Shown: positions 6,647-55,300, counted from the first letter of the stretch. The stretch is 64,000 nucleotides of DNA from Eledone cirrhosa (GCA_964016885.1 OZ024743.1:193068001-193132000), one strand, 5' to 3'. Program-made: numbers and translations. The notes: a model not told the origin generated them from the sequence alone.

Positions 6647-9600
6647 GTTGGTTAAATATTACTCAGTCAGTTAATATACCAGTGAATAGTATTTCCTTGT
6701 CCAAGGTCAATTTGTGACAAGCCCTTCTCACATCGTCTTAGTTATTGATTGTATTTAATGTTTTAGACTGTAGATATATATTTGTAATTTTAAAGTTCGA
6801 ATAAGTGTGTATTAGCTAATTCTTTCCGAATAATTGTTTCTTTTTTCTTTAATAGTTTATGATTTTTTTTTTTAAATGATGTTTAAATGAGCCGGTGTTT
6901 TGTTTACAAATGTTTGCCCCTATTCACCTCTAAACACTCAGCATTGCTGTCACAGTTTTTATTTATATCTATAATTATATAACATCCTATTTTTTAATAT
7001 TCATAAATCAAATGATCATAAAAGAAATCTTCCACACACTTTTTTCTTGTCTAATTAAATGATTAACTTCTGCACAACCTGTTAATTACTCTTATGATGT
7101 CTCTAAGAACGTTTCAACACTTATTTGAAATGACCTCCAGCTTCCCACAAGTTACCTATTAAAATGCAATCTTGCTTTGTAATGAAAATAATTTTACTTT
7201 GAATGACTTGTATTTTTAGAATATTAAAAGCTACTTAGCTTATAACTATATCTATTGATTTATTATATAAATATACAAATGATCTTATTTGCCAAACCGA
7301 CGTACAAACGCACCGATAATGGCAGTAATGTGATTAGTGATACTTTGGTAAAGGAGAAATGTTTTAGTTTTTCTTAAGAACTGTAATATTCCTTCTCTTA
7401 GCCCTTATTTCATGTAGGACTCGTCGGGGTGCCATACTGATATACGGTGGATCAAAACCGGATCGCATGTTCGTCGTGACAATTAATGTGACGATACTTT
7501 GCTTTACCAGTTACCTGAATAACAATCTTTAAAGATGATATAAAATGAATGAATGTAAATATATAGTCCCGTTTGATTAAAGATTCAAATCTATTTTAGT
7601 ATGTTTTATTTACAAGTTTTGTTATATTTGACCATTGTCTCTTAACGCAATTAACTCAGTCGACTAAGTTAAAATATTATCAGGATTCAAAAGAAATCGA
7701 TATCTGTTAGATTCTACTGTTTGATATTATTAGTGATTTGTAATATAGGAATCAGTTTCCAAACAGATGTGGAAATATTTTATGATGCTTATGACTTTCC
7801 CAAGGACGTTCTAATTATTATGATTAATTTAGAACAGACAACTTTTACTGCTCTAATTAACATTTTCATAGGGCTAGGAAGCGATAAATAAAATGCTACA
7901 ATAATCTTCAAAGTATTCATTTTAACTCATTTTCTCCAAAAGCTTTACAACTCTCCAAAATCATATCTGTACCCTCTTATTATTTCAAACCCCGCTGAGG
8001 TTGACTTTGCCTTTCATCCTTACGGGGTCGATAAAATAAAGTACCAGTAATACACTGGGTAATTGCTGGCCTTGTGCCAAAAAGTAGAAACAATTATTTT
8101 CTAAATCGAGTCTAACCACCTGTTGTAACTTGTTTGCTTACACCTATTTACACTGTGTCTATAAATTAGGTAACATGGAATAATTTAATTTCTTGTCAGC
8201 ATCCGTCTCACTGATCATTTTCTGTCCATTTCAGTTAAAATAACTTTGATTGTGGCCGATTTCTTTTAATATTTTACTGTTTTCAGACATTGGACTGAAG
8301 TTTAGTCAATTATATCGAGCTCAGCAGAATTCGATTTTGAACCCAGAAGATAAAGTGACATAACCAAATATTACAAACTATCTTCTTTGATCGATTCATA
8401 TTTATTTGTTAATGAAGACTTTGCTTTCTATCTATGAACACTTACCACGGTACTTTGGATCCTGTTATCTTGAATACAAAGTGTCTAACACGAATGTCAG
8501 TTGCATATTTGGCACTCTTTTCAGTCATCTGGATGTGACACTGCTATAGGGTTTATCGCAGCTTTACACAACGAAAGAGCATGATGTTAATGCTGCAATG
8601 TAGGTTCATCTGGGAGTGCTGTTTGAAAGTGTTAACATCTGCTCCATGTATATTCCTTTGAAACCCAGGGTATAGCAATACATAGTTCTGTAGCGAAAGA
8701 AATGTTTTCCCACAGTGTTTTTTCCCTTATGGCCATAACCACCAAAGGAGTGAACTGTGACCTCGAGAGAAGATAATAAATAAATTTCCCCCATGGAAAT
8801 ACTGCCAATTGTATGAAAGGAGAACATTTTCTAAGGCTGTCTGTTATCAGTAAAGTAACTAGTGGTCATTATATCTGTCAGTTCTCTGCCTCATCCACAG
8901 CCTATCCATATAACAGTTTACTACCACCTCTGCAGGCAACATAACTGTCTGACTACAACTTATCACTTTTTGAGGAAAATCCCATGGTTAATAAAGAAAC
9001 TCTTGCACAACACAGAAGCTTTATTGAACACTATAATCAATGATTGCATTTACGATTCAGTGTAGTTGCTTTTTTTTAGGTGAAGTAAAGCTATACATTA
9101 AACCAGAATTGTTGGTATTTGTTGTGTTCGTCATTTCTTCCACAACAAATAAACTTTACTTCAGTTCTTACTCAGAAACAATAAGGGTAGAAGTTTTGGC
9201 ATTGGACTAGTCATAAAAAGGTTCCATTTCTCACAGTTGTTCAGTTGGTGCATGGAAACAATCTTATTAGTGTAGGACCATTAGATTGTTTTCTATTCCA
9301 TAGTCATCCAAATCATAGTTGGAAGTAATAATCTAAGTAACCGAGAACAGCATCTTGTACAGAGCCAGCTTGATTTCCTTTTCTCTTGTAAATATTCTCA
9401 AAATCTATCCTGTGCATAGAAATATAATATAATTCTCTATTATAATAGCAATTCACAAAAAGGAAAAAAAAAATGAATATTAAAAACCATTAAAGTTATT
9501 ATATGCCTATCAATTTAGAGATTTAATTCTCATAATGCTAATTACAAAAAATAGCCAACACTGAATTACTGTTGTAGCCTTTTTTAATAAGTGGATTCAA

Positions 9601-12564
9601 ACTGAACTAATTAATAGAATCAGCACTAAACTGTTGACAAATATAATGTAGTGGCCAGTGGTATAGTTAGCCTAATGTAACAATGTAGTGGTCAGTAGTT
9701 TAGTTAGCTCTTTGATATCTGGTCCAATCAAAATGAATAGTTTAAAATATAAAATGCTATTAACAGAGAATGTCTGCACTCTTGCAACTAGCTGCTCTTT
9801 AAGTATTTTGTTTATAAAATGAACTCCAAATGTATTTATACTTTTTCCCACTCTTTTGAATCACAAAATTACAGTCATAGAAGCTTATATTGGGGGAAAT
9901 ATGCAAAAAAAAACAAAACAACAATATAGATTTCACAATATAATGAAGATTAGATTAAGTAAAACTTCTGACCTTCCCATGATTAGGAACTAATGGTGAA
10001 AGCAGATTGGCCAATGTCAAGGGCATATCTTTTACCCATCTCATGAAAGTAGAAGAGGGTGTTGTAGAAGAAGCAATGAAGTTTAAAGATGATCTGTGAT
10101 GCAATTGGTTGAAATAAATTATAAAGGTCAAGTGACACATGACCGTGACCTCTGGCATCATGCAGTAATACAGAAGACCCCCCCCCCCACGGGTGAAGCA
10201 TATAGACAATATGCCCCCACACCCTCCCACTACAAAGTGGTCGTGGAGGTGCCACGGCAAAAAAGCACCCAGCCCACACTGTAAAGTAGACGTGTAGGCG
10301 CCACAGAAAAAAGCACCCAGCACTCACTGTAAATGAGGTTGGTGTTAGGAAAGGCATCCAGCTGTAGAAATCAAGCCAGAATCAGTTCCCGTATGAGCAA
10401 GGCATGGTCAGCCGACCGGCTACTGCCCACAACAGGACAACCTGTCTAACCCATGCTAGCGTGGAAGATCGGACGTAAAACGGTGATGATGATGAAAGAA
10501 TGTAAGCTAAAACGCTATTATGTATCATCGTCATACAACTATTTTCTATGCCTTTATTGATTAGACAGGTTATCACATTCTGAGGCTACACAGTCAGATG
10601 ACCACATCTTGCGCATACATTCTATTCTTAGCTTAGTTACTATGGCTGAATGCCTTTCATAATGCCAACCACTTTACTGCATGTACTGGAGGCATTTTAT
10701 AGTGGTACCAGCACTACCACTTTATATACAATGTAGACTAGGTGTGTTTTATCATGACTCTAACATGACATGGCTACTTTACGAAGTGGGCTGGTTGTAT
10801 TTTATTGTAGTACCATCACTACTTCATTACATTATTAAGGCATTTGTATCCTCAACCCAGCTGGGGAAATCAGTGATGGGAATGGTGGGAAGGAAAGAGG
10901 GACATGCTACATGTTACTTACCTAAGGAGTTGCTTGCTAATGTATTTTTGGTAACAACAAGCTGGTGAAGAGGAAGATGTATACGATTGAAAGTGTATAT
11001 TCTTAGTTTTACATGTTTCTTTTTATCTTGCTGGAGAATAGCTACAAAGGTGTTCTGAAAAATTTACCCAAATTAAATTACTGCCCTTAAACAAGTGGAA
11101 CTTTCTCTTTTATCACCTTCATTCTATAGAACATAGAGCTAAGCCAAGGCTGGACTTGGTAGCACGTCAACCTGATTAGACACTGCAAGCAGGAAAGGGT
11201 GAGGGCAGTTTGTATAGGGAGAGGTGTGAGCTTTGGTTGAGGAGAAGCAAGCAACCAGATTTGTGGCATTGTGAAAGCAAGGTCCTTGGATGAAGTGGAA
11301 ACAAGCAGCAGAGCAAAACATCAGTTGGCAGGACATCTGGAAGTGGAATTCACAAAAGACCAAGTTCTTGATTCCAAGGGACTGTAATACCCTGTCTAAC
11401 CTGCTCCAAAGCAGTGCATCAGTCAGTACTCTAAGCACCTTGTTATGCTTCCATGTATATCTGATCTTCAGGCCAGGTGGGCAACTGAACAGTATGTGTT
11501 TCATCATTCCAGCCTTCCCACATTTGCAAAGGCTACTTTCTTCTATGTTCTGTTTTAGATTTGTGGAACTAGGAAGTATATCATAGAGCAAACCAGAAAA
11601 CTGGTTCAGGCTAGCTCCCATGACCACAATTCCTTCCATCCAATCTTCCACTCAACTACAAACTCCTCCCAAAACACAAAATCAGTCTCTGATGGCTGCA
11701 TTGCATCAAGGCCACACAGTGACTTCTCATTTCCTCCCTCTTTACCTGGTAGACTACCGCAACCCTTCTCTCCTTCTGATTCATGGTGTAGCATGATTGA
11801 AATTGGGAATTTCCTAGGCCCTTTTTATTGCTCTGCACAGGACCTGCTATATCTTCACATCCTAGGGAGGCCGCAAAGTACTCCATTACGTCTGATGCCA
11901 TCTGCTTTCTTTTAATCATGAGTCCTGATGGGGAGGAACAAATGACTTGGTCATTTAAATGGTGCTGTGTCACCACGGTTCGCACTTTACCACACTTGTA
12001 CTGCTTGACTGGGACAGGTAATTCTATTGGACCACCTTTCTTCTACAAAGCTGCACATGCAAATGTTTGTGGTAATCCTAGACACTTTCTGATATATTTC
12101 ATACAACATCAGTTGCTGCTGCAGTCTGGGGGTAAAGTGCAAACTGCATGCACCAGAGTTTGAAGTGCCTGGCAGTAATGTTTTATCTATCGCTGAAAGT
12201 CCAGCCTCACCCATCTTCTGGATTCTTAGTCCTTCGCTTCTATCATTAAGTGACCCATAGTACAACCTCCTTATACTATTTACAGACTTCTCTGCAATTG
12301 TTGGCATGACCTCGCTAGCAACCTCATACTTCAGTGTTTTTGTTTAAATAACAAAACAACCGATACAGTACATTGAAGTAATATATTAGTTTAATGCTTG
12401 AAATAGCAGGAAGAAGGTCTTAACGTTTCGGACGCTAGTCCTTCATCAGAAAAAAGAATGAGAAATTAAAGAAATAGAAAAATTGAGATGGACAGGTTAG
12501 AATCTGAAAAAAATTTTTTAGAGAAAAATAACAGGTCTTTTCATGTTGCCATCTCTTGGAAAAA

Positions 12565-12612
<48 letters not shown>

Positions 12613-15600
12613 TGAATAATTGTGCACATTTAACAATACATGAACATGATAGAGAAGGCAATTGAGGAAATGGTTTTGAAAGAAGAAGAAGAAAATATGA
12701 AGTACAGTAATGGAGGGGAAGTTTGCGAGTTAGAAGTAGGTGGGTGAGAAGGCATTGGAGGAAGATATGAATGAATCATGACGGTGGCTGCTCTGCAACA
12801 TGACAGTGTCAGCACTCTAACCTTGGTCATTGTATCTCACAGTTATTGTATATTTTATTTTTTGTCATAACATTTCAAAGAGGCTGTACTAAAGGGGATT
12901 CTTTCTCCAAGCAGTCCTAAAAAAAATTCAGAATTCTTAATGGGATGGGTGTTGTAATGTTCAATATCTTTCTTAGCCCTTTATCATTTAAACCGGTCAT
13001 ATCCAGCCAGAATTCTTTCAACTCTTTCTGTTCAAACTGGCTGTAACTGGCCTCTCGTACTGATGTTAAGGTATTGTTCTCAAAGTAAATAATATCAAAA
13101 TCTCATAGATTCCATATTATGTGAGATAAAACCTTTACCGTGAAAATATAATAGTAAATATAGAGTAATGTAAATGCTAAAGGGTTAAGGTATTTAGCAA
13201 TGTAAATCAAGTGACATAAGAATAGATAATTGAAACAGGCTCATGATGTTGCTTTGCTGAGTGCTTACCTGTTGTTTTATGGTGATTGCTATATGATTTA
13301 TTGTTTGTGTTTATATTGCTTTCCCCTTTGTTCTTTTTAGCTCCAAGGAATTCTTGGAATTGCTGTGCGTTTTTCATCTTCCTTAGCTGACCAAGCAACA
13401 TTTGACCTTCAGGTTAGTTAACTTTTCATGTATTTACATATATCATTATCATCATTTAGCATCCGCTTTCCCTGCTAGCAAGGGTTAGACTAAGATATAT
13501 ATATATAGTTCTAGGGTATATACTATATATACTTGTATATAAGCCGAGAAATATGTGAAAAAAAAAATATCCTTACATGCCTTCACACTCAATACATTGA
13601 GTCTATATATTTTGAAGCTTCATTTTGTTTTTTATGGTCAGTTGTGTATATATACTGATCTATATCTATCTACCTATCTATCTGTCTATAAATATGAGTC
13701 ACCTTGACAGGCCATAAGAGAGTGAAATAATTAGATGCTACATTCATAGATTTATTTTGATAAGTAAATTAAAATAGAATTACTATTTATGAGAGATAAC
13801 CTTCAAAGGTTACTCTGTATCTACCAACTGTCTCAGCACTATAAAACATTAAGTTACTTGTCAACTTGTAGTTAATTTTACTGAACTATGAAAGACTTTT
13901 TTTGTTAATTATTTTCCATGTATTTTTAGCATTTAGCACACACTGTAAAGTGGTAGTGTTGGTGCTATGATAAAAGGCACCCAGCCCACACTGGAATGTG
14001 ATTGTGCTAGTACTATAATAAAATACACATAGCCTACACTGAAAGTGGTTGTGCTTGTACTATAATAAAATACACATAGCCCACACTGTAAAGTGGTAGT
14101 GTTGGTGACATGTTAAAATGCACCCAGCCCACATTGTAAAGTGGTTGTGCTAGTACTATAATAAAATACACCTACTCCACACTGTAAAGTGGTAGTGTTG
14201 GTGTTATGATAAAAGCCACCCAGCCCACACTGTAATGTGGCAGTGCTGGTGACATGTTAAAATGCACCCAGCCCACTCTGTAAAGTGGTTGTGCTTGTGC
14301 CATAATCAAACACACATAGCCCACACTGTAAAGTGGTTGTGCTAGAGCCATAATAAAATACACACAGCTCACACTGTAAAGTACCATAATAAAACACACC
14401 CAGCCCACACAGGAATGTAGTAGTGCTGGTGCCATGATAAAAAGCACCCAACCTACATTGTAACATGGTAGAGGTGGTACCATGAGAAAACAAGCCCAGT
14501 ACATGCTGGGAAGTGGTTGGCATTAGGAGGATCCAGCTGTAGAAATCATGCCATAATGAAATGTAAGAGTAAGACACAGTCACCTGACATGACAACATGT
14601 CTAACATTTGCATGGCAAATAGACGTAAAACGGTAATGATGGTATTGGCAGAGCCAGCACCTTGGTATTTAACACCCTGGGCTATCTCTCCAATGTATGT
14701 CCCCTTCTCCCAGTTATGTGCTTCATTCTCTCAAATAAAGTAATTTTCAACTTACAGTTTGGTGAGCTGATGAACCTAGTTTATGACATTTCTTGCTTTG
14801 AAACCTGCATTTTACACTATACAGTTCTCTCCAGCACTTGGGCTATTTTCACATCACTGCTACATGTCAAAGATGTTTAACGATTTATTAATTGATTGCA
14901 GGAAATCATTCATCATCATTATCATTGTTTAATGTCCCCTTTCCACACTAGCATGGGTTAGACGGGTTGTATCATTTGAGGCAAGTTGGGTCAAGTGACT
15001 GTGTCTTTTTCATTTGGAACTGTTTCTGGCTAGACTTCTACAGCTGGATGTTCTTCTTAATGCCAACCAATTTTTATACAAATTCGTATAAAACTACAAT
15101 CCTTTAACATTCAGTTATGCATCTCTCTAAGGTCTGCACTCTAAGCAGCTGTCTGGTTAGCATTAACTGAAGTGCTGGTCCAGAAGAACATGAGAGGGAG
15201 TTTTTGGTGGCAAAGTTAAGCAATTGTGATTCAATCTAATTTTAATCGATTAGGCATGAGTGAAACCTGTTGTCAGCCTGATAGACTAACAGTTAATTAC
15301 AGAAGATGTAATAAGACTTGAATACTTGATCAGTATGTTCACTTTGCAGTCATTATAACATTGTAGATCAATAAAGATGTCACTCTTGCCATCATAAATA
15401 AAGTGAACTAGTGACAAGCCTAAAGTACCCTCTAACCAATGGTGCTTTTGTTCACTTAGTGCAATATATAATTATTTCTAATATTGGCACAAGGCCAGCA
15501 ACTTGGGAGGAGGAGAAAGTTCATTTTATTGACCCCAATACCTAACTGGTATTATGTGTTATCAAACTCGGAAGGATGATAAGCAAAGTTAACATCAATA

Positions 15601-24600: not shown

Positions 24601-27600
24601 GGCTGGGTGCTTTTTTTATTGTGATAGCAACACAATTATACAGTGTAAGGGTAGTGTGGACATAAGTTGTGGCATGGGAGGTGTATGAAAGAGGGTATAG
24701 TGGTTAAGAGATGCCTACCAGATGTATGTTTGAGTCTGTGCACATTGGAAAGTGTGTCTTGCGTATTACTGCATAATGCCAAAGATCTCGTTCCTGTGTC
24801 ATTGTTTTTGCATTTCATCTTAACCATCAATCATTTACCCCACAAAAATGAACTGTGGTTCCAATTTACATGTATTATTGATGAATTATGCAGCTCCTGT
24901 CACATTGAAGGAAACAACAGACATGCTGGTTACTTATTTTATCTATTCAATTGATTTTGTGGCTTTCTTTATAAATAAGAAATCACCATTATTCTTATTT
25001 CTGTGTCATCTTCTTAACTCTTCTCTCAGTCTTGCTTCATCTCTCACTGTATAATTGCTAATCATTATTCTAATATATTTCTCTAGGTCCCATTAGGAGC
25101 TGGCATTGGTTTTGCCCTAAAGTACCAGAAGAAACCTAATGTTGCAGTTGCTCTGTATGGAGATGGTGCTGCTAATCAAGGTCAACTTTTTGAGGCTTAC
25201 AACTTGGCTAAATTGTGGAATGTACCAATCATTTTCGTGTGTGAGAACAATGGCTATGGAATGGGTACTAGTGTAGACCGAGCATCTGCTTCAACTGACT
25301 ACTACACTCGAGGAGATTATATTCCTGGCATTTGGGTGAGTGACATTTGTTAACATCTCATACGTGTAATATATGCAGAGGAAATATAATAGTTAAACAT
25401 AAATAGACGAACCTGGAAACAGAGGCCAACCTGGAGAAGAAAGATCTGGAAGCTGAAAGACCCCTCAGCCAGTAACAGATTTAAAGATATTTTATCAACG
25501 CCTATGACAGTAAAGAAGAACAGATAGAGACATTCAATGTAGAAGAGCACTGGGAGTTCCTAAAAAATAACTTACTAGAGGCGACGGATGAGATCTGTGG
25601 CTGGAGTAAGACCACAAGCAGGAAGAGAGTGACTTGGTGGTGCAACAATAAGGTAGATGAGGCAGTTAAGGCCAAGAGACAGGCATGGAAAGAATGGAAG
25701 AATGGGGGAAGCAGGGTACATTACATAGAGACCAAGAGGGAAGCAGAGGATAGAAAATTCAAGCATGTTTTGCAACGTGAGGACCAGAAACAGGAGGTGT
25801 TCAAGATTGCGAGGCAGTGTGTCAGAGAGAATTGTGATGTCATTGGAGAGAAGTGTATCCGGAATGATAAAGGTGAGCTTGCCCTCACAAGTGCTGAGAT
25901 GGAAGAGCCATTATGATAGATTACTAAATGAGGAGAATGCATGGGAAGAAGAGACCCTACCTCAAGTAGACCCTATAGAGGGGCCAGCAGTACAAGTCAG
26001 CAGCAGCGTAGTAAGTAAGGCAATCAAAGATATGAAGATGGGGAAGGCAACCGGTCCATCGGGTATAGCTGCCGAGATACTGAAGGCATCTGGGTCTGTA
26101 GGTCACACTATAACCACACGTATTGTTAACCAGGTAATACTAGAAGGTGTCATACCAAAAGATTGGTGCAGTAGCATCATTGTCAACTGCTACAAAAGTA
26201 AAGGTGATGCACTAGATAGAGGAAACTATAGAGCTATAAAGCTGATGGACCAGGTCATGAAAGTAACAGAAAGAATTATAGCACAGTTGATTAGCGACTG
26301 GGTGAAACTAGATGAGATGCAATTTGGGTTTGTACCAGGAAGAGGCACCACTGATGCCCTCTTCCTTGTGAGGCAGTTACAGGAAAAGTACCTAGCTAAA
26401 AGTAAGCCACTCTACCTGGCATTCGTCGATCTCGAGAAAGCCTTTGACAGAGTTCCACGTGCTATAATCTGGTGGGCTCTTAGAAAACTAGGAGTAGATG
26501 AATGGCTTGTGAAACCTGTGCAAGCCATGTATAGGGGAGCAGTCAGCAAAGTTAGGATTAGCAATGAGTATAGCGAGGAATTTAGCGTACAGGTTGGTGT
26601 CCACCAGGGCTCTGTTCTTAGCCCTCTCCCGTTCATCATAGTCCTGCAGGCAATAACGGAGGAGTTTAAGACCGGATGCCCATGGGAACTCCTGTATGCA
26701 GATGACCTCGCACTTATAGCTGAATCTATGGTAGAACTAGAGAAGAAATTCCAAACTTGGAAGCAGGGACTAGAAAGAAAGGGTCTCAAAGTCAACATGA
26801 CAAAAACTAAGGTCCTTGTAAGTAGACGAGAAAACAGAACCCAGATCCCCTTAGGGAAATGGCCTTGCTCAGTATGTAGGAAAAGTGTAGGTAGGAACTC
26901 CATTCTCTGCCCCAAATGCAAACAATGGGTACACAAGAGATGTAGCGGGATCTCAGGAAGCTTAATTAAGAATGTAGGCTTCACATGTAGCAGCTGTGCT
27001 GGGACAGCAAGCAGCAAACAGCCACAGGAAACAAGTACCACTAATCTCTGGGAGGGCTCTGTAGAAACAGTAGACAGCTTCTGCTACCTAGGTGACCGAA
27101 TTAGCAGCAGAGGTGGGTGTTCAGAAAGTACAATAACTAGGGTAAGAACGGGATGGAAGAAGTTCAGGGAACTACTGCCACTGCTAGCTGCAAAAGGCTT
27201 CTCCCTCAAAATGAAAGGCAGACTGTATGATGCGTGTATCCGAACAGCAATGTGACATGGTAGTGAGACCTGGGCGCTGAAGGTGGAAGACTTACATAGA
27301 TTAGAAAGAAACGAAGCCTGCATGCTCCGATGGATGTGTAATAGTAATATATGCGAAAGGCAAATCATAAATGAATTGAGAGAGAGACTGAGCATAAGAG
27401 GAATCAAATGCTGTGTGCAGGAGAGGCGTTTTCGTTGGTATGGACATGTGATGCGTATGAAGGATGACAGCTGCATAAAAAGGTGCAGAGCAATAGAAGT
27501 CAATCGAAACCGCGGAGTGGGGAGACCCAAGAAGACCTGGGATGAGGTGATAAAAGCCGACCTTACCCAATTACACCTCTCAAAGGCGATGACACACGAC

Positions 27601-30600
27601 TGTGACCTCTGGCGTCACGCAGTAATATAGAGTACCCGACCTCCCATGGGTACAAGCTGAAGCATATAGACAATATGCCCCCACACCCTCCCACTGCAAA
27701 GTGGTCGTGGAGGTGCCACGGCAAAAATGCACCCAGCACACACTGTAAATGAGGTTGGTGTTAGGAAGAGCATAGCGGTAGAAACCAAGCCAAAATCAGT
27801 TCCTGTATGAGCAATGGTCAGCCGACCAGACACTGCCAACAACAGGACAACCCGTCTAACCCATGCTAGCATGGAAGAACGGATGTAAAACGGTGATGAT
27901 GATGATGATGAAACATGTTATTGCTGGTAATGTGACAAGCAAATCCAATGATCCAGTCTTCAGTGATATGATGGTACTAAATAATATTCTCTACATATCT
28001 GTTTTCTATATATATATTTGTACAGTTCTTTATGAACAAGACACAGTCACCTGACCTGATTTGCCTCAAATGGGACAACCCGTCTAACCCATGGAAAATA
28101 GACATTAACCCTTTAGCATTTAAATATATATGTATCATCATCATCATTGTTTTTTTATGGGTTGGATGGGATATTTTGAGGCAATGTTGTACAGCTAGAT
28201 GTCTTTTCTGACTCTAACCCTTTTAATTGCTTCTTACAACATGTAGGGATATGGAGTATTTATTCTAAACCAGATACATACATGTATACACATATAAATT
28301 ATAGAAGGATCAGAACAACCTATTCTCGACAATGTTAGTCGTCAAAAATCAAATACATTAATTTCATCAAGTCCACAATTGAAGCAAAGTACAAGAATTG
28401 TGACAGGATGTAGAAAGCCAAAACGTTTCGAGGAGGAATAATTTAATAGTTGCTGATTGGTGTCTTGGTGTCATCATCTGCTAGTCGTAGTCGTTATTCT
28501 TCGTATGAAGTGAACTCTCAGGGGTACATCTTGTGCACTCACGAGGAGATCACAAGGTGAGAAAGAAGGATGCAGCAGCCATCTAAGAAGGGTGTCAACG
28601 GTCAGCAGAGCAAAAGAGTACAAGGAATGAGCTGTGTAATTTACCGTTAATAAAAGTTTTTATTAAAACCCTCTATTACGTGTCATACATAACATAAATT
28701 AAACCGCAATGATTTCATTTGTTACAGGTTGATGGTATGGATGTATTAGCTGTTAGAGAAGCCACAAGGTTTGCCCGGCGCTATGCTCTTAAGCAAGGTC
28801 CTATCCTCTTAGAGTGTGTTACTTATCGTTACCATGGCCACAGTATGAGTGACCCTGGTACAAGGTAAGATTTATTATTTTTTCAGTTTTTGTTTTGATT
28901 TTCTTCTTTTTTTGTCTTTACTTTGTTGGGAAATTTGGAAACCATTAGTATAAAATGGGACTTATTTGTGGTGAAACGTGAGTATGTGGAGAGGAGATGT
29001 ACTTGATGTGTATTCAGAAATAAAAAAAAATGACAGCAAAGAAGGAATATGAGGGGTACCTGAAGAGGGAAGTAATAATGGAACATGTTGTTATGGGTAG
29101 AGATGGAAAGGTGGAGAGATGCTATTAGTAAAGAGAGGGAGAGAAAGACTACCAAGAAATAGAACAATGGATATCTTCCAGTTGTTTGATCAACTGTACT
29201 ACTTATGCATTGAATTAGTGTAAGTGGTTGAGTATTCCATAGCCATATGTAGTTATCTTCTTAATGTAATCTTTATGCAGAATAGCTTGTGACTTGGGTG
29301 GCTCATTGAATTACAAGTACAGCTTATTGAAAGGACTTCTGTACAATTTCTGTCCACTCAATTGCACTCACAAGGTTCAGTTTGAAGGATCTGATAGAGG
29401 ACACTTACCTAAAGTGTCATGTAGTGGGATTGAACCTGGAATCATGATTGAGAAGCAAACTTTTTAATCACTTGCTCTATCATTATCATTTAATGCCTGC
29501 TCTCCCTGCTAGCCAGGGTTGGATGAATCCTCACAGACCAAGTTGGTACTAATCTGGGTCTATTGACCATGCAGACAGACCGGGAGCTTTCATCTTGCTT
29601 ACATATGGTTCCATGCTCTGAGCGCATTTTATCATCACACCAGTATTAGGGAGGTTGTCATGTTTTTTACACAACTAAAGGGGCCTCCCAACCCTTTGTT
29701 TGGCAAGCTTTCTGTGGTTGGATGCCCTTCCTATCACCAACTATTTTACAGAGTATACTGGGTACGTTTATCATATAGATCAGCAACACTAGAGAGATTG
29801 TCATGTCCGTGAAACGAGCTAACTTGAAAGCGCACATTACAAATCAAGTAACTAATATATACCAGAAGAATACAGTTATTTTGTTTGTCATGGTTGTTTT
29901 ATCAAATCCAAAAGAACGGGAGCCAAAATGTCTCTCCTGGATGGGTTTGAACTCTAAACATAACAAAGTATAACTAAATACTGCAATATTATTACACTAT
30001 TATTCCAATTCAAAACCTTCTCTCACCTGTTGGAAGAACCTCTCTCTGGTTTACTTCCACTGCTTTCTGTTTGGTTTTGGTCATGTCAGGGGTGTGGCCA
30101 TACTCACCACGCTTGGCCAATTGTGGGTTGGTGAAGCTATTTAACTCAAATAATAATAATTACAAAATTACAAAAATATTGTTTATTTTGCCACATTAAT
30201 TTTATTTAATTAATGTGAATAGAAAAGAGTAAACAAGAAAGCCCTGAGGTTGTAGTAACTGATCCGAAATTTCTGAAACTCACAGAGGAGATAACGAAAG
30301 ACTGCAATGAGTGTTGGGATGCTGTGCTTGCAAGGACCCATTGAACCCATGCAAGCATGGAAAGGCAGACATAAAGCGCTGATACTGATGACATATGCGG
30401 CTGATTTATTATTATTTACTAAAAAAAAGTAGAACCAATTATTATTGAGTGGCAATAATAATAATAATAATAAATTATTATTATTATCCAGGGCGGTGGA
30501 TTGGCAGTATTGGTAGAGTGTCGAACACCATGCTTTGCAGCATAGAGTTACGGCCCTTTACGGCCTGAGTCTAAATCCTGCCGAGGTTAACTTTGCTTTT

Positions 30601-33600
30601 CATCCGTATGGGGTCGATAAAATAAAGAATCAGTAATACACTGGGATAATTGCTGGCCTTGTGCCAAAAGTAGAAACAATTATTATCCAGGGCGGTGAAT
30701 TGGCAGTATGAGCATCAGACACCATGCTTTGCAGCACAGTGTTATGGCCCTCTACGTTCTGAGTTGAAATCCTGCCGATGTTAACTTTGCCTTTCATCCT
30801 TACGGGATCGATAAAATAAAGTACCAGTAATGCACTGGTGTAATTGCTGGCCTTGTGCCAAAAGTAGAAACAACTATTATTGAGTGGCAATGGATTAGTA
30901 CAATCATTAGAGCACCAGACAAAAAAACCTTGTAGTATTTAGTTACAGCTCTTTACATTCTGAGTTCAAATGCTGCTGTGGTCAACTTTATCTTTCATCC
31001 TTCCATGGTTGATAAAATAAAGTACCAATTGATGTAATTTACTTTTACCCTTTCCCTAAAATTGCTGGCCTTGTGCCTAAATTAGAAACCATTACTATGT
31101 TAAAACAAATATTCATGTTGAAATGAACTGTCATTTTCCTCACTCACCATTACTATTTTCTGTACATCATAGCTACCGTACAAGAGAAGAGATTCAGGAA
31201 GTAAGAGAAAAGAGGGACCCAATTTCAGCACTGAAAGAGCGCATGTTATCTAACAACCTGGCTGCTGCTGATGAACTTAAGGTAAGTTAGAAATAACTAA
31301 TTTGTTACACAGGTCATAAGGGGATGCTAGTCTCTTGGTGTTCCGAAAAATATGTTCATAGCTATTCTATCTTAGTTCAGGCAACTGAGATATAATATTT
31401 TTAAGTAACTATTACACTATGTATATGCACAATAGCTGTAGAGTTACAGTGTTGGTCTCCTAGTCAAATTTTACTACTACTACTATGCTTTGCCTTTTGA
31501 TTGCAAATGGTGAGTTAGAATATCACATTAATTATACCCCTTTAAAACATGGGCAGTGACTGCAGAGGCTGGAGATAAAATGAAGCAAGCATGCTTTGAT
31601 GGATATACAGTGTTAATGTGAGAGAACAGCTGAGGTTGGATGAACTGAAAGAAAAACTGGGTTTAAAAGGAATTAGAAGTAGTATGCAAGAGAGAAGACA
31701 GTGTTGGTATGGACATGTGATGCGCATGAGTGAAGAAGTTCCAAGGAAGCTGCAGTAGAAGACCAAGTAAGACCTGGGCAGAGTTGGTGAGAGCTAATCT
31801 CAAATTGTTGAAATTCACAGAGGAGATGACAAGTGGAGAAATGCTGTGCTGAAAAGTACCCGTCCAACCCATGCAAGCATGGAAAAGCGAATGATGACTA
31901 AGCAATTTAATTTAACATCTTGTATTTTCAATTCAAAAATATATATGTAGTTAGAATTAATATTGGCAAGGGTCGTTCCGAAGGAGTGGCGTAGCAGCAT
32001 CATCATTAACTGCTACAAGGGTAAAGGAGATGCCCTAGATAGATGAAACTATAGAGGCATTAAATTAATTGACCAGGTCATGAAAGTCACAGAAAAAGTA
32101 ATAGCGCAACTAATCAGAGCGAATTGATCTGGATGAAATGCAGTTCGGGTTTGTGTCAGGTAAAAGTACCACAGACGCTCTTTTCATTGTACGACAGCTA
32201 CAGGAGAAGTACCTAGCTAAAAGTAAACCCCTATACTTAGCTTTTGTTGACTTGGAGAAAGCCTTTGACAGAGTCCCACGCCCCATTATCTGGTGGGCTC
32301 TCAGAAAACTAGGTGTTGATGAATGGCTTGTGAGAGCTATACAAGCCATGTATAAAGAAACAGTCAGCAAGATTAGAATTAACAACGAATATAGTGAAGA
32401 ATTTAGCGTAAAAGTTGGTGTTCATCAAAGTTCTGTCCTTAGCCTCCTCCTATTTATTATTGCCCTTCAGGCTATAACAGAGGAGTTCAAGACCGGCTGC
32501 CCATGGGAACTCCTATACGCAGATGATCTAACGCTCATAGCTGAATCAATGGCTGAACTAGAGAAGAAATTCCAAACATGGAAGCATGGCCTAGAATCAA
32601 AAGACCTTAAAAATTAACCTGTCTAAGACTAAAGTTCTAGTTTGTAGGAAGGAAAATAGGGCACTGGTCCCATCTGGGAAATGGCCATGCTCAGTGTGTA
32701 GGAAAGGAGTAGGCAGAAACTCCATTTTATGTCCCAAATGCAAAGTATGGGTGCATAAAAGATGTAGTGGGATCACAGGTAAGCTAACTAAGAATATAGA
32801 TTTTATATGTGGCCGGTGCTCAGGTGCAATAAGTAGCAGCATGTGCCCACTGAATACTAGCTCATTCCATTGCACAGATGGTTCTATAGAAATAGTGGAC
32901 ACCTTCCGTTACCTGGGTGACAAAATCAGCAGTGGTGGAGGGTGCTCTGAAAGTACTGTAGCTAGAGTCAGAACGGGATGGAAAAAGTTCAGAGAGCTTA
33001 TACCACTATTGGCCGCTAAAGGTTTCTCTCTAAAAATGAAAGGCAGGCTATATGATGCCTGCATACGAACAGCAATGTTACATGGCAGTGAGACCTGGGC
33101 ATTGTGTGCAGAGGATATACGCAGACTGGAGAGGAACGAAGCTTGCATGCTCCGTTGGATGTGTAATAGTAATATACGTGAACGGCAAAGCATAAACGAA
33201 CTAAGGGAGAAATTAGGAATAAGAGGGATCAGATGTTGTTTACTCGAGAGAAGACTACGTTGGTATGGCCACGTGATGCGCATGAAAGACGACAGCTGTA
33301 TAAAAAAGTGCAGGGTGATAAAAATAGATGGTAGCCACGGAGTAGGCAGACCCAGAAAAACCTGGGACGACTTGATAAATTCCGACCTCACACACTTACA
33401 CCTCTCCAAGACAATGTCACTGGACCGAGATCTTTGGCGCTACACAGTAATACAGAAGACCCGCCTTGCCTAAGTACAAAGCGAAACCTACAGTCAGTAG
33501 GCACCTCTTAACAAAAATACACCCCCGTCCCACTACCCCCACCCCATCCACACCACCCCTTTCGTAAAGTTATGTTGGTACCACAACATCCAGTCCGAAA

Positions 33601-48600: not shown

Positions 48601-49356
48601 CACAGTTGGATAGAATCCAAGACCATGTGGTTACGAAATGAACTTTTTAACTACATAGCTGTGTGATGATGATGATCATTGTTTGATGTCCATTTTCCAC
48701 GCCAGTATGGATTAGACGGATTGTCCCATTTGAGGCAAATTGGGTCAGGTGACCGTTTTTGGCTAGATTTCTATGGCTGGATGCCCTTCCTAACGCCAAC
48801 CACATTTACAGTGTGTGCTGGGTGCTTTTTGACGTGACACCTACACGATCACTTTACAGTGTGGGCTGCATGTTTTTGTGATGTTAAAATATTTAAGAAA
48901 TGAAGTAAACAATACTTACAATTCATCAAAATGGTTGCCATTGAGAAGGTGGATGTTTCTTTGCTGTTTAGCATGGTTGACATTATAGTTAGGCAGAAGA
49001 CCACCCAGTCCATGACAACATCGTGGTTCACGAATTCGAACCTGGATTTTATATGATCGTCGACTTGTCTCTCGTGCAGCTGTAGCAGCAGCTGTGGCAA
49101 AGTCCAGTACACCAGTGACAGGCTTGATTACAGTGCCAACTAACCCTTTACTCAAACCGGTGAAAAAGCCCTTGAAGAAATAGTTTATATAAAAAATTAT
49201 CTCATACATGTAATTGAGGTTAAAAGGGTTTTTTAAATGTTTTTTTCATTTTAATTTCTTTTAAATTTTAACTATGTTTTTTTCTCTAATTTATATCATA
49301 AATACATAGATTAGAGAGATATGCACAAGATAGATAGGCAGTTAATAGTGCAACAA

Positions 49357-49399
<43 letters not shown>

Positions 49400-52300
49400 A
49401 AGAGAGGGATGGAGAGTGTCTGACAATAAATCTTTATATTTCAGTACTTACTCCAAAACCATCGTCACGTGTCCCTTCATACGTTTGGTTGACCACACTT
49501 GTCAAACCACCAACAATTCCTATTACCAGACTTTTGCAGCCAGCTTTCAGATGGTCAGAAGAATGACCAGTGGAATGTCCTGAAAGTATCTGGGTACGTT
49601 TCTTCAAATGCTTTTCATCCATGGCTGCCATAGTCAATCCATCAGATAAGGAGCTGGTCACCTATACATTTAGGGAAGATAAAATATTGAATTTAGTGAA
49701 TATAAAGATGAGAAAGACATAGTATTATTTGGTAGAGTTGATAGAATGTTGGACAAAATGCCAGCAGAATTTAGTTATGGATTTTTATGTTCTGAGTTCA
49801 AAACCTGCTGGGGTAAATTTTACCTTTTATCCTTCTGTGGTCGACAAAATAAAGGATCAGTCAAGTACTGGGGTCGATTTAATCAACATTCCCCTCTCCT
49901 CAAATTTACTAGCCTTGATCTAAATTAGAAGCAATTATCATTTTAGGCTTATTTTCCAGGCTTGCATGGGTTAGACAAGTTAAATATATAGAGGCTGAAC
50001 AGGCAGGTCAGATGGCTGTATTTTACACATACAGAAGAACAAATTAAACCTAAAATTTAACTGGTATTTATTTTATTGACATTCTAGGAAAATGAAAGGC
50101 AAAATTGACCTCAATAGGATTTGAGTTCAGAATATAAATGAACACTAGAAAATATTATGGAAGAGAAAGGCAAGGTATTGAAATGAAAGATAAAGGAGTT
50201 AAATAGAGAAATATCTCAGAGCTATTATAAGGAGTGAGTAGTAATGAGTATTGGAACAAAAGAAATAACCATTAAAATAGAACGAAAGAGAATATGGAAT
50301 GAAGAAAAGAACGTAAGAACAGAGAAGCAGGAATGAGAGTGCAATCATAATAACAGAGCAGGGCATTATTAGGAAAGGACTGGAGATCAAATAGCACAAC
50401 AGAGAAAATGTAAAATGTAACAAAAAGGCTTTACATAAAAAAAAAAACCCTTACTTTGGCAGTAGAGTTTGACACACCATGAGTGACATTTTTCAGCAGT
50501 CCACCAAAGTTGCCATCTTTGATAAGGCCTGAAATCCCTTCAGTGAAGTCGTTGAATAAACCAAGTGGATTTCCTAGGAAGTCTATAGAACCCAAAATCT
50601 TGGCAGCTTGACTTTTCAATTCCTGTAAGAAACGTTACAGATAGATATGACATTTTATAAGCAGCAGCATTAACATAACATGATTCATAATAAAGATGTA
50701 TATATGGTTATGTTTATGTATAATAAACATATATAAGTTTTGATATGAATGTTTATTATACAGAAACATATTGTATATGCCTTCATATACACCTTATTAT
50801 GACAATTTATATCAAACAACTCTTGTTTACTAAACATTAAATCAATAGTCATGTTTCCAACCAGTAATATAAACACTATCCCCTAAGAAACCAAACCAAA
50901 TAGAGAACATATAAGCATATGAGGGAGCCTATCTATGGTCAATCAAAATAGTAATCAAATCTACCTTAAATCATACCATACCATTTTAAAGAAGGACACA
51001 TGGATAATGTATATATTAACCCTTTAGCATTTACATTACTCTATATATACTATTGTATTTTTATGGTAAAGGTTTTACTTCACATAATTATCTCACATAT
51101 ATCGAATCTATGAGATTTCGATGTTATTTATTTTAAGAACAATACCTTAACCTCAGTATGAGCAGCCGGTTATGTTCGGTTTGAACAGAAAGAGGTGAGA
51201 TAATTCTGGGCGGATATGGCTGGTTTAAATGCTAAAGGATTAAGCCAGGAAGAAAAAAAAGGGTATGATGTTAATAACAAGAACCCTTATTCAACAATAA
51301 TCTCGATAAAAAAAAAAGTACCAGTCCAGTACTGAAGTTGATTCTTCCTCTATATCTCTTTCTCACTTCCTCTCAAGGATAGTCTCTACAAGGATGGGAT
51401 AGTCTCCACAAGGTTTAAAATATCCTTATGACACCCCTTCAACTCCATTAGGAGTTTCAGGTCCATACATACAATAGTCCTTGAAATAATAAAAAAAAAA
51501 AACATAATAAAAAGATAAAAACAAAACTATTTCTTACATCAGTGTAATGAGATTTTATCTCGTTAATTAGAAATGTGCTTGTCTCAAAGACATGTTGTCG
51601 AATATAGGCATCTGAAATTGAAGGAAAAGAGATTTTTTTATAATAACAGAAAGCCAATTTAATAATAAAACAAAATAAACAAAAGACAAAATTTAAATTA
51701 CAATAAAGTACATCCCTGCTCACCATTAAACAATAAAGCTAGACATTTAAAGATAGTTGCTTCTGATAGGACCCCATGGAGTCTTTGCTCCCATGACCCT
51801 TTCAGAAATAAGTGGAAGAAGTTGTAGTAGTAGTGTGGGGGTAGGAGTGGGGAGAAGAAAAAAATGTATAAATACTGACCCAAATCAACAGTTGCATCTT
51901 CAAAACTTATCCAGCGAAGGGACAGTTTATTTTTAATTGCTTTTAATTCTGGTGGTAAAGTAGGTGCAGTGAGCATGCTCAGTGAGATACGGTGAGTGTT
52001 CAGCCGAAGAATACCAAAGAAGTAACGCTTGTTGTGAGGTGGACTAGCAGCAGCTTGAAGTACAGGCCTGCAACAGAAATCTGAGATAGTTAGCCGAAGC
52101 TACCATTGAAAGTGGGAGCAAGAAGGAGGTATAAGCAACTGAAGACACAGGACTGAAAACGGAAACTTTGATCATGCAAATGATTTGATCCTTGCTGATG
52201 ACACAATAATTATCTTTATTAGTTTGTTTCAGTATGTATAAAATAGAACTGAATAATACAAAAAAAAAATAAGGCTTCTTTTGAAGCAAGAAATCTCTCT

Positions 52301-55300
52301 CTCTCTCTCTATATATATATGTATGTAAAAGGTAAACAGAAATAACAACACAATCGGTACAGTACATGGAAGGAATATATTAGGTTAGCGCTTGAAATAA
52401 CAGGAAGGGGGTCTTAACGTTTCCGGACGCTAGTCCTTCATCAGAAGAAAGAATGAGAAATTCGAAAGATTGAAGGGACAGGCAGGGCAGAATCGGAAAA
52501 AATGTTGCCATCATACACACACACACATACAAATATATATAATCATCATCATTCTATATTTGCTTTTCCCTGCTTGCAAGGGTATATATAATATATATGT
52601 GTCTGTGTGTGTATATATATATATATATATAAAATATATTTTGGGGTTAAGCTGGAATCCGACTTCAGATCAGCAAATGAAGTTCTGGCAGACCATCTGC
52701 CGACTTCGTAATAAGGAGTCCTCTTCCACACCTGCTATCAAGAACGCGTCTGGGGTTCTGCTTTCTTCAGAGAGGTGCATCCTTGTGAAGTGGAGAGAAT
52801 ATTTTGCTGATCTTCTAAAACTGATCACAACAGCATCTTCTGATGAACACAAGGTGCATCTGGGAGCAGTGACTAATCTCTTGGTGTGATCTCCTTGTTA
52901 AGCTTCCCCAGTAACATCTATGCTAAGTGTCTGGTAAAGAGATGTAAGGAGACTGTCGAGTCCAAGCTAGCTGATGAACAGTGTGGTTTTTGCCCTGGAC
53001 ACAGCACAGCTGACCAAATATTCACACAGCAACAGGTCTTTCAGAAATCATAAGAATATTGCCAAGAGGTATATTCTTGTTTTGTAGGCCTTGAAAAGGC
53101 ATATGACTGCAGCAGAAGGTTCTGCAGGAGTATGGGATCAATATCTCTATACAAATAAAAATAATTGTGATGATGATGATGATGATATTTAAATCATGTA
53201 CACTGTATCTTCATCACATACACACACTAAAATAAAAAATCATTATTACATTGCTTTCTATAGTTTAGAGCACCCAAACTGATCAAAAATGATATTTGGA
53301 AAGTTTTAATTAAACATACACCACAAACAAACTTGTCAACCAATCTTCACTGTGCATGAGATAGTTAGTCTCACATGTGTTCCACATGGATGAGAGATAT
53401 TTTCACAAGAGGAAGACCAGTTTTTATGATGCAGTCTTGTTACTTTGAAAATATCAAGAAAGATCCCCAATGATGGTGAAGCCAAGCTTCTGTAGTTGTA
53501 TGTTGTTCATGTTTAGTGTGGTGGAGATGTTGATTATGATGTTAGTAATCACCAAAAGTTATTATTAGGTGAAGAAGTACCAGATGTTCCAAGTGGAAGG
53601 GAACTATGAAAGAGGAAAACCAAGGAAGACTTGGGTAGACATGGCGAAAGCTGATCTCAAGATCCTGAACTCCACAAAAGAGATGATAAAAGAAAGAGAC
53701 AAATGGAGAGACAAGTGGAGAAACCCTGTACTGCAAGCATGGAAAAGCAGATGTAAAATGGTGCTGATGATGATGATGACTTTGAAGAGTCATCCTTTAG
53801 AAATCAGCAAGCTTGAAGCAATTCATGTGTGTGCCAGATGACAAAGGACTGTGATTTGTCTAACTCATGCCAATATTGAAAAACAGACATGATGATGACT
53901 GTCAAGGTTAGATATTCATACCTACTCTCGGGTCTTGAATAATCGTCCCACCACTGTTTATTAACTTTTCAGATTTTTTCCAATTCCCCGCACTTACCCC
54001 CGCTCCCCCAATCTATTTCTGGCGAAGCAAGTTAATAAAACAGATTCAAAGCAATAATTTTCTTAATATATTAAAAAACATTATCATGACAAAAAAGAAC
54101 ATTACAAGAAATCCCATATGTTATAAAATAAATAGGATAAGTTGGGGTAAACTAACTGGCTATGTATGTAAACTAACTGGCTAATTCTGGTTTCTAAAAA
54201 AATCAAGGGAAACAACCTAGAAAAATTACCGGTTTTCCAACCGCTCACTGCTTATTCTCCACTTTTGGACCCGAGAGCAAGTTATTTCAAATATAATTTA
54301 TTTTTAAAACAAATCAATAAAGATTATGTTTAGTATTTGAACAAATTATGTCCATAAAATATTGATATCATGCAACATACATTAACCCTTCAGGATTCAT
54401 TGATGCAGTTAGCAAAATAGCAGGTGTTATAGAAAACACAGGTATAAAGGTTTGGTATGGAAAGAACATATGACAAAAAACAAAAAACAACTTAAGTTCT
54501 AGAATTTACTGAAACCAAATAATTTCAATTAATGCATGCATCATTATTTAAAAGCCAATCTCAAAATAGACATCAACATGAAATCCCTCTACCGTTAAAA
54601 GAAACTATCTAAATCACTCCATTTTTGAGAGAACCAAAATGGTTTCCATATTGGTTAAAAAAATAGCTCTCGACTTTTATTTAATCGATTTTCTTTTTAC
54701 CTTTCTTCATCACAGAATATGAATTTGAAAACAGAGAAGCAAGTTGATAAAACTGATTCAAAGCTAGAATGAAAATATAAAATTTATAAGAAGAATTTAA
54801 CAATATCAATAGATGTTAATGTAAATTTGTTTACAAGATGTTATTGGACTTTGGAACAGGAATAAATAGGCTCAATAGTAAAAACAATTGGGGCCATTAC
54901 CTTATAGAGTATAGTTGATTACATCAAGCTCACTACTTATTTTTTCGACTTCAGAAGGATGAAAGGCCAAGTGAACAATGACAGGATTTGTATTCAGATT
55001 GTAGTTGTTGTCATTCTCATTGTTTTCTGTCTGTGTTCTGTGCTGAACAATTTGTCACGCTCTGAGATTAGACAGGCTAGATGTTCTAGTTTGGCATGAT
55101 TTCTACAGCTGGGTGCCCTTCTTGATGCCAAACACTATAACTAAATACCTCAATGCCTTTTGTCCAGAATTCTACTGATTTCCATTAATATTTGAGTAAC
55201 ATAGTATAGTTAAGTAACTTTTACATGTCCCACATGTGGCTTTCCCAGCTCATTAAAAGCCTCATCAAACCTAAGAATACTATTTCCTTGCTAGCATACG

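What the first reader, a model, noticed from the sequence alone, without database searches (positions are those of the whole stretch)
12346..12553. Small dispersed repeat carrying an intact minimal hammerhead ribozyme
Seen: the - strand of 12418-12453 reads UUUU CUGAUGA A GGAC-UAGC-GUCC GAAAC GUU^AAGA. This has the full CUGANGA/GAAA core, stem II, a palindromic AACGUU in place of stem III, and stem I AAGA/UUUU. It sits in a ~200 bp non-coding unit that recurs at 52340-52512, and both copies abut microsatellites. Known: minimal type I hammerheads with a palindromic stem III that fold as dimers are typical of Penelope pseudo-LTRs and animal retrozymes. Inference: a non-coding, ribozyme-bearing mobile family in this genome, unrelated in sequence to the Penelope element at 58750-60500 and possibly undescribed.
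Basis: partly seen in the sequence, partly recalled or inferred. Interest (0 to 1): 0.72.

Follow-up and report, generated by a model that had tools for sequence, protein, structure and literature searches.

The report
Solo ends of a Penelope-type retrotransposon
This short repeat with a predicted self-cutting RNA motif is the stranded tail end of a 3.6-kb Penelope-type jumping gene, present at thousands of places in this genome, a known kind of thing; its favoured length of about 228 bases likely marks where the element's RNA begins.

Summary
The motif is real: an intact minimal type I hammerhead at 12418-12453 (-), 0 hits in 100 shuffles; the copy at 52323-52512 has an extra G in the core. 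But the unit is not an independent non-coding family. It is the 3' end (pseudo-LTR) of a 3.6-kb Neptune/Nematis-type Penelope-like element (RT, CX4CxxC linker, GIY-YIG), seen as pLTR-ORF-pLTR, tandem and inverted copies. At least 6,420 copies exist (about 12,000 by capture-recapture). The 3' end is fixed at (TA/CA)n; 5' ends vary, and 4 of 95 reach the ORF. Short and ORF-linked copies are interleaved on a tree. 5' ends pile up 4-7 nt inside the element's only Inr+DPE pair (232 nt from the end) and collapse upstream, so the unit is likely a run-off cDNA of the RNA's first 232 nt, copied through an uncut ribozyme. No peak sits at the cleavage site, only a weak two-fold step. Single minimal hammerheads from truncated PLEs are published (PMC4209133). 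This scan noted Penelope ends piling at the promoter start on other DNA of this genome (e1-9849436). New member of a known kind.

The parts
12346..12559 (-). Copy 1: solo pseudo-LTR of a Neptune/Nematis-type Penelope-like element, older subfamily; starts at about +3 to +7 of the inferred RNA, lacks the last ~16 nt
   Evidence: 82% identity over 222 nt to the 3' end of full-length copy L112; subfamily with the short extra T/C block
12418..12453 (-). Minimal type I hammerhead motif: stem I 4 bp, core, extra A between A9 and G10.1, stem II 4 bp, palindromic ACGU in place of stem III; predicted cut between 12422 and 12421
   Evidence: sequence; descriptor 1 hit vs 0 in 100 shuffles; all four diagnostic traits of PMC4209133
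12534..12538 (-). DPE-like pentamer at +28 to +32 of the inferred transcription start (reads AGACC here, GGACC in most copies)
   Evidence: spacing of 28 in 79 of 80 copies that hold both motifs; DPE consensus is recalled
12560..12609 (.). 5' flank on the element strand: T run (likely the expanded +3..+6 T run) and (AT)n target microsatellite; the Inr A+1 is absent
   Evidence: sequence
52323..52512 (-). Copy 2: solo pseudo-LTR, starts at about +13, internal deletion of about 30 nt that removes the DPE, complete 3' end
   Evidence: 88% over 181 nt to L112; sequence
52412..52448 (-). Hammerhead motif of copy 2 with an inserted G between C11.1 and G12 (likely damaged)
   Evidence: sequence
52295..52322 (.). 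(AT)n/(CT)n microsatellite at the 3' end of copy 2
   Evidence: sequence
52513..52530 (.). (CA)n microsatellite at the 5' end of copy 2
   Evidence: sequence

Best explanation
The repeat is the solo 3' end (pseudo-LTR) of a 3.6-kb Penelope-like retrotransposon with a Neptune/Nematis-type linker, and it is likely made when the element's reverse transcriptase starts at the (AU)n tract behind the first pseudo-LTR of its RNA and runs off the RNA's 5' end about 232 bases upstream, through a ribozyme that was likely uncut. Steps: (1, shown) the unit ends every long copy and precedes the 5' UTR of tandem copies across a short (AC/AT)n tract; (2, inferred) an internal Pol II promoter, Inr at -232 plus DPE at +28, starts the RNA inside the upstream pLTR; (3, inferred from known PLE biology) the GIY-YIG domain nicks (TA)n DNA and the nick primes on an (AU)n tract of the RNA; (4, inferred) priming behind the first pLTR gives cDNAs of at most 232 nt, priming behind the last gives the ladder of longer 5'-truncated copies; (5, shown) most short copies start at +4 to +7 and so lack the Inr, which (inferred) leaves them promoter-less and explains why no separate short lineage arose; (6, inferred) the hammerhead needs a partner copy or the element's protein to cut, is kept by selection on the master elements, and is a passenger in dispersed copies such as the two in this window.
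For: Link to ORF: 24 of 30 EN-selected loci; 22 of 28 without the two that led to the query; 6 of 30 RT-selected loci with an upstream tandem unit, 4 of 30 with an inverted one; L112, L115: pLTR end, 5' UTR, ATG, ORF of about 2.77 kb, 600-nt 3' UTR, hammerhead 121 nt from the end. Protein: RVT_1 E 2e-4, under the curated cut-off; 264 longer relatives at E<=1e-20 with PF00078/PF26215, some with PF01541; ADKG, GLRF, CX4CxxC and CCHH motifs in translations. Fixed 3' end with microsatellite in 94 of 100. 5' ends in 95 de-duplicated copies: 27 at 210-239 nt, 3 at 240-299, 4 beyond 600., hand tally: 86 of 94 unique junctions lie at +2..+13 (61 at +4..+7), 8 of 94 upstream of +1; T-homology sites there hold 18-19 each vs 2-4 at such sites in the tail over about the same range. 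The Inr+DPE pair is the only one in the 3.6-kb copy; chance about 0.002 per 25-nt window. 10 of 11 5' UTR heads follow a pLTR end and a short microsatellite. Subfamily alleles shared by ORF-linked, UTR-length and short copies; label not clustered on the tree (24 changes vs 26.9 shuffled, 79 of 500 as low). 70 of 95 copies run through the hammerhead. Literature.
Against: No RNA data: the start site is inferred from motifs and cDNA ends. The Inr/DPE motifs were looked for after the peak was seen and their consensus is recalled. The peak overlaps a T run that favours joining to (AT)n; without such homology the drop across +1 is only about 3-fold (12 junctions at 4 sites vs 7 at 8). The peak does not tell priming behind the first pLTR from short RNAs started in a 3' pLTR or in promoter-bearing solo copies. 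The tree has 1 starred branch of 77 and little power. None of 30 copies of copy 1's own older subfamily reaches the ORF (7 reach the 3' UTR), which fits the 4% rate seen elsewhere but leaves its link indirect. The core is somewhat better kept in dispersed copies than flanks (17 changes vs 25-27 expected, p 0.03-0.05), not quite what pure passengers give. Pfam GIY-YIG was not hit on the EN piece tested.
Confidence: 0.76

Rival explanations
1. Same identity (solo pLTR), but the 228-nt peak comes from short RNAs started at the promoter of 3' pLTRs or of promoter-bearing solo copies and copied in trans, i.e. a Pol II 'ribozyme SINE' riding on the element.
For: Gives the same product as the main model; about 15 of 95 copies extend past +1 and keep the whole motif pair; short copies outnumber ORF-linked ones about 20 to 1; 0 of 30 copies of the older subfamily reach the ORF; one internally deleted 390-nt tandem pair exists (L147/L148).
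Against: No short-copy lineage on the tree or in alleles; most short copies lack the Inr; in the anole Poseidon the RNA needs sequence downstream of the pLTR for use as template (PMC11167929).
Confidence: 0.12
2. The peak is not an RNA end but a reverse-transcriptase stop or a joining hot spot at the GTTTT run, on ordinary 3'-primed, 5'-truncated copies; the promoter-like motifs are chance.
For: Junctions follow microhomology throughout (19 at the TATAT site vs 9 at the TA site); the strongest positions follow a T.
Against: Equal T-homology sites elsewhere hold about six-fold fewer ends; density stays low for hundreds of bases upstream; exact Inr, G+24 and DPE spacing at this place.
Confidence: 0.08
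3. An independent non-LTR retrozyme: a non-coding tandem repeat cut by its hammerheads into unit-length circles.
For: Minimal type I hammerhead, unit of 200-230 nt, non-coding; such arrays of another family exist in this genome (L078).
Against: Copies are single (1 tandem pair among 100, with a changed core), have a fixed 3' and ragged 5' end, and are continuous with an RT-EN ORF. No pile-up of ends at the cut site.
Confidence: 0.03

Closest known systems
Minimal hammerheads in pLTRs of metazoan Penelope-like elements (Cervera and de la Pena 2014, PMC4209133; parts 1-2 of 4 read: introduction, results, discussion)
   Same: Core, extra nucleotide between 9 and 10.1, G10.1-C11.1 pair, palindromic 15.2-16.2, 4-bp helix I; thousands of single motifs that the paper ascribes to truncated PLEs, a few pairs about 3 kb apart around an ORF, and opposite-strand pairs.
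   Different: Helix II is 4 bp, not the 7-8 bp of the Schistosoma families; this family's motif is uniform across subfamilies; the paper does not map copy ends or a promoter (in the parts read).
Neptune (or Nematis) clade of endonuclease-bearing Penelope-like elements (Craig et al. 2021, PMC8557442; passages read)
   Same: One ORF with RT and C-terminal GIY-YIG, CX2-5CxxC linker, CCHH, DKG motif, partial-tandem pLTR, inverted 5'-truncated partner, microsatellite targets.
   Different: Clade not placed by a tree with reference elements; no 30-40-nt tail beyond the microsatellite was seen in 100 short copies; a microsatellite tract is part of the pLTR-5' UTR junction.
Anolis Poseidon PAc (Frangieh et al. 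2024, PMC11167929; parts 1-2 of 4 read: main text)
   Same: Reverse transcription starts inside the RNA downstream of the pLTR and product length follows the RNA's 5' end; the hammerhead is not needed and uncut RNA is the main template.
   Different: PAc starts in an AC-rich stem-loop inside the ORF without homology to the target; here the inferred start is an (AU)n tract that can pair with the (TA)n target, and the hammerhead lies in non-coding sequence.
Drosophila virilis Penelope internal promoter (Schostak et al. 2008, PMC2377424; passages read)
   Same: TATA-less internal promoter with Inr and DPE inside the pseudo-LTR; upstream partial copy drives the downstream copy.
   Different: Here inferred only; no intron behind the start was tested.
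Metazoan non-LTR retrozymes (PMC7229834, passages; bioRxiv 10.64898/2026.07.22.740005, part 1 of 5 and passages)
   Same: Type I hammerhead, short non-coding unit, PLE origin, dispersed monomers.
   Different: Defined by tandem units each with a hammerhead; this family is not tandem and is still joined to its ORF.

Membership tests
Minimal PLE hammerhead (PMC4209133) | Catalytic core CUGANGA / GAAA / UH | tested here: met
   copy 1; 51 of 70 dispersed copies keep all 11 core bases, 41 of 70 also the stems
Minimal PLE hammerhead (PMC4209133) | Extra nucleotide between 9 and 10.1; G10.1-C11.1; palindromic 15.2-16.2; 4-5-bp helix I | tested here: met
   traits listed
Minimal PLE hammerhead (PMC4209133) | Lies in both repeats that flank an RT-EN ORF | tested here: met
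   (L112)
Minimal PLE hammerhead (PMC4209133) | Self-cleavage as dimer or with protein | not testable with these tools
   no assay; monomer predicted to misfold, all 20 pairs of the double-hammerhead form are standard
EN+ Penelope-like element, Neptune/Nematis type | Single ORF, RT then C-terminal GIY-YIG with CCHH | tested here: met
   translations; RVT_1 E 2e-4; relatives; Pfam GIY-YIG not hit on the piece tested; all copies seen are broken, longest open stretch 687 aa
EN+ Penelope-like element, Neptune/Nematis type | CX2-5CxxC linker between RT and EN | tested here: met
   CX4CxxC in L059, L053, L045 and others, and in 4 of 5 relatives printed
EN+ Penelope-like element, Neptune/Nematis type | Partial-tandem pLTR and inverted 5'-truncated partner | tested here: met
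   6 and 4 of 30 loci; L011
EN+ Penelope-like element, Neptune/Nematis type | Microsatellite targets | tested here: met
   94 of 100 3' ends
EN+ Penelope-like element, Neptune/Nematis type | Optional 30-40-nt tail at one end | tested here: inconclusive
   0 of 100 short copies carry the start of the 5' UTR behind the microsatellite; the trait is optional
Neptune clade proper (vs Nematis) | RT phylogeny with reference elements | not tested
   no named reference sequences on hand; relatives bear no clade names
Non-LTR retrozyme | At least two consecutive tandem units, each with a complete hammerhead | tested here: not met
   window copies single; 1 tandem pair among 100, core changed
Non-LTR retrozyme | Non-coding, not part of an ORF-bearing element | tested here: not met
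Non-LTR retrozyme | Unit-length linear and circular RNAs | not testable with these tools
   no RNA holder listed
Independent SINE-like family | Own lineage with diagnostic changes | tested here: not met
   (low resolution)
Independent SINE-like family | Preferred full-length 5' end | tested here: met
   peak at 210-239 nt, here read as run-off at the element's own start
Independent SINE-like family | tRNA/7SL/5S-derived Pol III head | not tested
   no tRNA scan run; Rfam at E<=5 gave no such match on the window

The most novel reading that the evidence does not exclude
The thousands of stumps are a fossil map of the element's RNA in the germ line: the main stop marks the capped start, and the two-fold drop in 5' ends upstream of the predicted cut records real in vivo cleavage of a minority of RNAs by a minimal Penelope hammerhead, for which in vivo evidence was lacking in the papers read; promoter-keeping solo pLTRs then act as a Pol II, ribozyme-bearing SINE and as thousands of scattered promoters.
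Probability: 0.2. Interest if true: 0.6.

Novelty: new member of a known kind. Interest (0 to 1): 0.32.

Why it matters
As a ribozyme find it is ordinary: single minimal hammerheads left by truncated Penelope-like elements are described in many animals. Its value is as a natural experiment. With 10^4 copies, the ends of the stumps can be read like a primer-extension gel: they point to the element's start site and to priming inside the RNA, the step shown in vitro for one Poseidon element, and they show that most templates were not cut by the hammerhead. It also warns that such ~230-nt peaks can be mistaken for SINEs or retrozymes in repeat libraries. A genome-wide end map would make the open question of whether these minimal ribozymes ever cut in vivo testable without bench work.

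Tried and rejected
Rfam at E<=5 over the window: no hammerhead model matched. Apparent fixed 5' start shared by five long copies: an artefact of using a truncated copy as query. In vivo cleavage fossil: first suggested a pile-up at the cut site (clean junctions 48 at 0..+7 vs 56 at -21..-1, about 2.3-fold after weighting; hand tally), but searches showed a plateau over 0..+24 rather than a peak (single-A sites 4 and 10 near the cut, 6 and 5 far downstream, 3 and 0 upstream; no step among no-homology sites), so it is left as inconclusive. Separate non-autonomous lineage: rejected. Selection on dispersed ribozymes: raw core-vs-flank difference p 0.006 fell to p 0.03-0.05 after matching base composition; not claimed. 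Tail extension behind short copies: 0 of 100. Relation to the window's other Penelope: none in DNA, 32% over 41 aa of the endonuclease. The library lacks most subscription papers and Repbase/Dfam were not searchable; supplements were not read and may list this family. Look-up of earlier findings by sequence gave nothing.

Full report
Observation. The minus strand of 12453-12418 holds the motif as described. A structural descriptor finds it once in the window and never in 100 dinucleotide shuffles. Rfam gave no hammerhead match at E<=5. The second copy (52323-52512) is 82% identical but has an extra G between C11.1 and G12 and a deletion of about 30 nt. As a single strand, copy 1 is predicted to pair its core with the 3' side in an inactive hairpin (z -1.3; -7.5 vs -4.0 kcal/mol for the hammerhead stems); in a double hammerhead all 20 pairs are standard, though the cofold minimum was another structure.

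Copy number. The 32-base motif occurs exactly 2,559 times and a 26-base tail piece 6,420 times, controls 0. 22 of the first 44 motif sites have a tail site among the first 100, which gives about 12,000-13,000 copies; this is a lower bound, since older copies such as copy 1 miss the tail piece.

What it belongs to. Among the 30 best matches the 3' end was fixed and the 5' end ragged; the longest ran into a GIY-YIG-type frame with a CX4CxxC linker and, further up, an RT. Of 30 loci chosen by that endonuclease DNA, 26 carry part of the unit downstream on the same strand and 24 the hammerhead part (two of the 30 are the loci that led to the query). Of 30 loci chosen by the N-terminal part of the ORF, 6 have a tandem copy of the unit upstream and 4 an inverted one. 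L112 and L115 show the whole plan: upstream pLTR of variable length, short (AC/AT)n tract, 5' UTR of about 225 nt, ORF of about 2.77 kb, 3' UTR of 600 nt with the hammerhead 121 nt from the end, microsatellite. The RT piece hits RVT_1 at E 2e-4, under the cut-off, and the EN piece had no Pfam hit; 264 longer relatives at E<=1e-20 carry PF00078, PF28514, PF26215 and in part PF01541. All copies seen are broken (longest open stretch 687 aa). The linker places the element with Neptune or Nematis (PMC8557442 passages); I did not separate the two. It is unrelated in DNA to the Penelope at 58750-60500 (32% over 41 aa).

Not a separate short family. I fetched all 100 listed tail sites and dropped 5 (three by shared flanks, one second member of a tandem pair, one unreadable 5' end); one of the three may be a false duplicate. 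In the 95, 5' ends run from 46 nt to beyond 600 nt, 4 reach the ORF, 70 span the hammerhead; 94 of 100 end in a microsatellite. Subfamily alleles are shared among 38 ORF-linked, 28 UTR-length and 55 short copies, and no column between 138 and 75 nt from the end, which spans the ribozyme, has a second allele at 20%. On a tree of 42 short and 38 ORF-linked copies (80 of the 165 copies then in hand: those of at least 200 nt in these two classes) the label needs 24 changes vs 26.9 shuffled, 79 of 500 as low (poorly resolved). In copy 1's older subfamily (46 exact sites, 30 fetched) 7 of 30 reach the 3' UTR and none the ORF, about 1 being expected.

Why about 230 nt. The 5' ends are not a smooth decay: per base, 0.44 at 66-92 nt, 0.25 at 93-120, about 0.19 at 121-179, 0.53 at 180-209 (inflated by six alignments that ran into the microsatellite), 0.90 at 210-239, 0.05 at 240-299. 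At the upper edge, 232 nt from the end, lies an Inr-like ACAGTT with G at +24 and GGACC at +28 to +32; the spacing is exact in 79 of 80 copies, it is the only such pair in the 3.6-kb copy, and shuffles give about 0.002 per 25-nt window (consensus recalled, looked for after the peak was seen). A separate genome search for (TA)n junctions around this site (first 100 of 474 rows, 94 unique, hand tally; only junctions after T with a non-A base) put 86 at +2..+13, 61 of them at +4..+7, and 8 upstream of +1. The peak sits on a T run that favours joining, but like sites in the tail hold 2-4 junctions over about the same range vs 18-19 here; for sites without homology the drop is about 3-fold. D. virilis Penelope has an internal Inr/DPE promoter in its pLTR (PMC2377424 passages), and the anole Poseidon protein starts reverse transcription inside the RNA downstream of the pLTR, with product length set by the RNA's 5' end (PMC11167929 main text). 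Since 10 of 11 5' UTR heads follow a pLTR end across a short (AC/AT)n tract, the simplest reading is priming on that tract by a nicked (TA)n target and run-off at the cap. Most such products lack the Inr. Copy 1 fits: it begins in the T run. These steps are inferred; no RNA holder was listed.

Does the ribozyme cut? Untested. Copies that span it came from uncut or re-joined RNA, as in PAc, where the hammerhead is protein-assisted and not needed; dimer constructs of a minimal motif cut weakly and monomers not at all (PMC4209133). I looked for cDNA ends at the predicted cut (93 nt from the end). Hand tallies (first 100 of 250 and of 177 rows, cut to the same range; 158 unique, 104 clean) gave about 2.3-fold more ends at 0..+7 than at -21..-1, but (first 100 of 225 and of 288 rows) showed that density stays as high out to +24 and follows microhomology. 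So there is a step of about two-fold and no peak; pausing at the RNA structure or length decay explain it as well as cleavage. In dispersed copies 51 of 70 keep the core and 41 of 70 core and stems; core changes are 17 vs 25-27 expected (p 0.03-0.05), too weak to claim selection on solo copies.

Comparison and verdict. It works like, and passes the sequence tests for, the minimal hammerheads in Penelope pLTRs, whose paper already reports that most motifs are single and probably from truncated elements. It fails the tandem and non-coding tests for retrozymes (PMC7229834 passages; 2026 preprint part 1 and passages). Six paper searches listed no description of this family or of a run-off peak; repeat databases and supplements were not seen. 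Earlier notes of this scan on other DNA of the same genome reach the same class, and one (e1-9849436) reports Penelope ends piling at the likely promoter start (seen after my analysis; I tested the idea only on this family and do not know whether it is the same family). New member of a known kind; interest 0.32, mostly for the readable map of RNA ends.

Noticed in passing
L078:2421-5857 (also L050): A 310-nt tandem array of another hammerhead family, 8.5 units at 100% plus 2.6 inverted units at 99%, each with core, 6-bp stem I and a CGCG palindrome: a young candidate non-LTR retrozyme.
   Followed up: partly
L147/L148 (G000:C1:19524700-19525400): A 390-nt tandem pair in which 37 nt around the start codon are joined to the last 190 nt of the pLTR at a short shared sequence: an internally deleted derivative, core changed.
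   Followed up: partly
L013 oriented 251-400; L048; L063: A sister pLTR family, about 74% alike, whose stem II reads GGGC/GCCC where this family has GGAC/GUCC (a change on both sides), with the same ACGU palindrome.
   Followed up: partly
L043, L045, L053, L055, L062-L066, L073, L075, L077, L080: At least four further hammerhead-like families in the flanks, one as a 436-nt repeat pair.
   Followed up: no
window 58750-60540 (-): The window's other Penelope-like element has a GIY-YIG hit, no CX2-5CxxC linker and no RT core in the frames listed; near 58775-58810 it has a hammerhead-like motif with one core change.
   Followed up: partly
L112, about 292 nt from the element's 3' end: A conserved pyrimidine run plus CAG that looks like a splice acceptor in the 3' UTR, upstream of the inferred start; three copies begin near it.
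   Followed up: no
window 25729-27630 (+) and 32114-33473 (+): Two decayed non-LTR reverse-transcriptase ORFs of one family (RTE-like, label recalled).
   Followed up: no
window 35540-38257 (-): A broken hAT-like transposase gene in four frames (label recalled).
   Followed up: no
window 48916-49245 (-): An exon-like frame resembling the C-terminus of a VPS13-family protein (recalled, no search run).
   Followed up: no
window 7984-8100, 10133-10495, 12972-13190 and their partners: Several other short dispersed repeat families with 4-8 copies each in the window.
   Followed up: no
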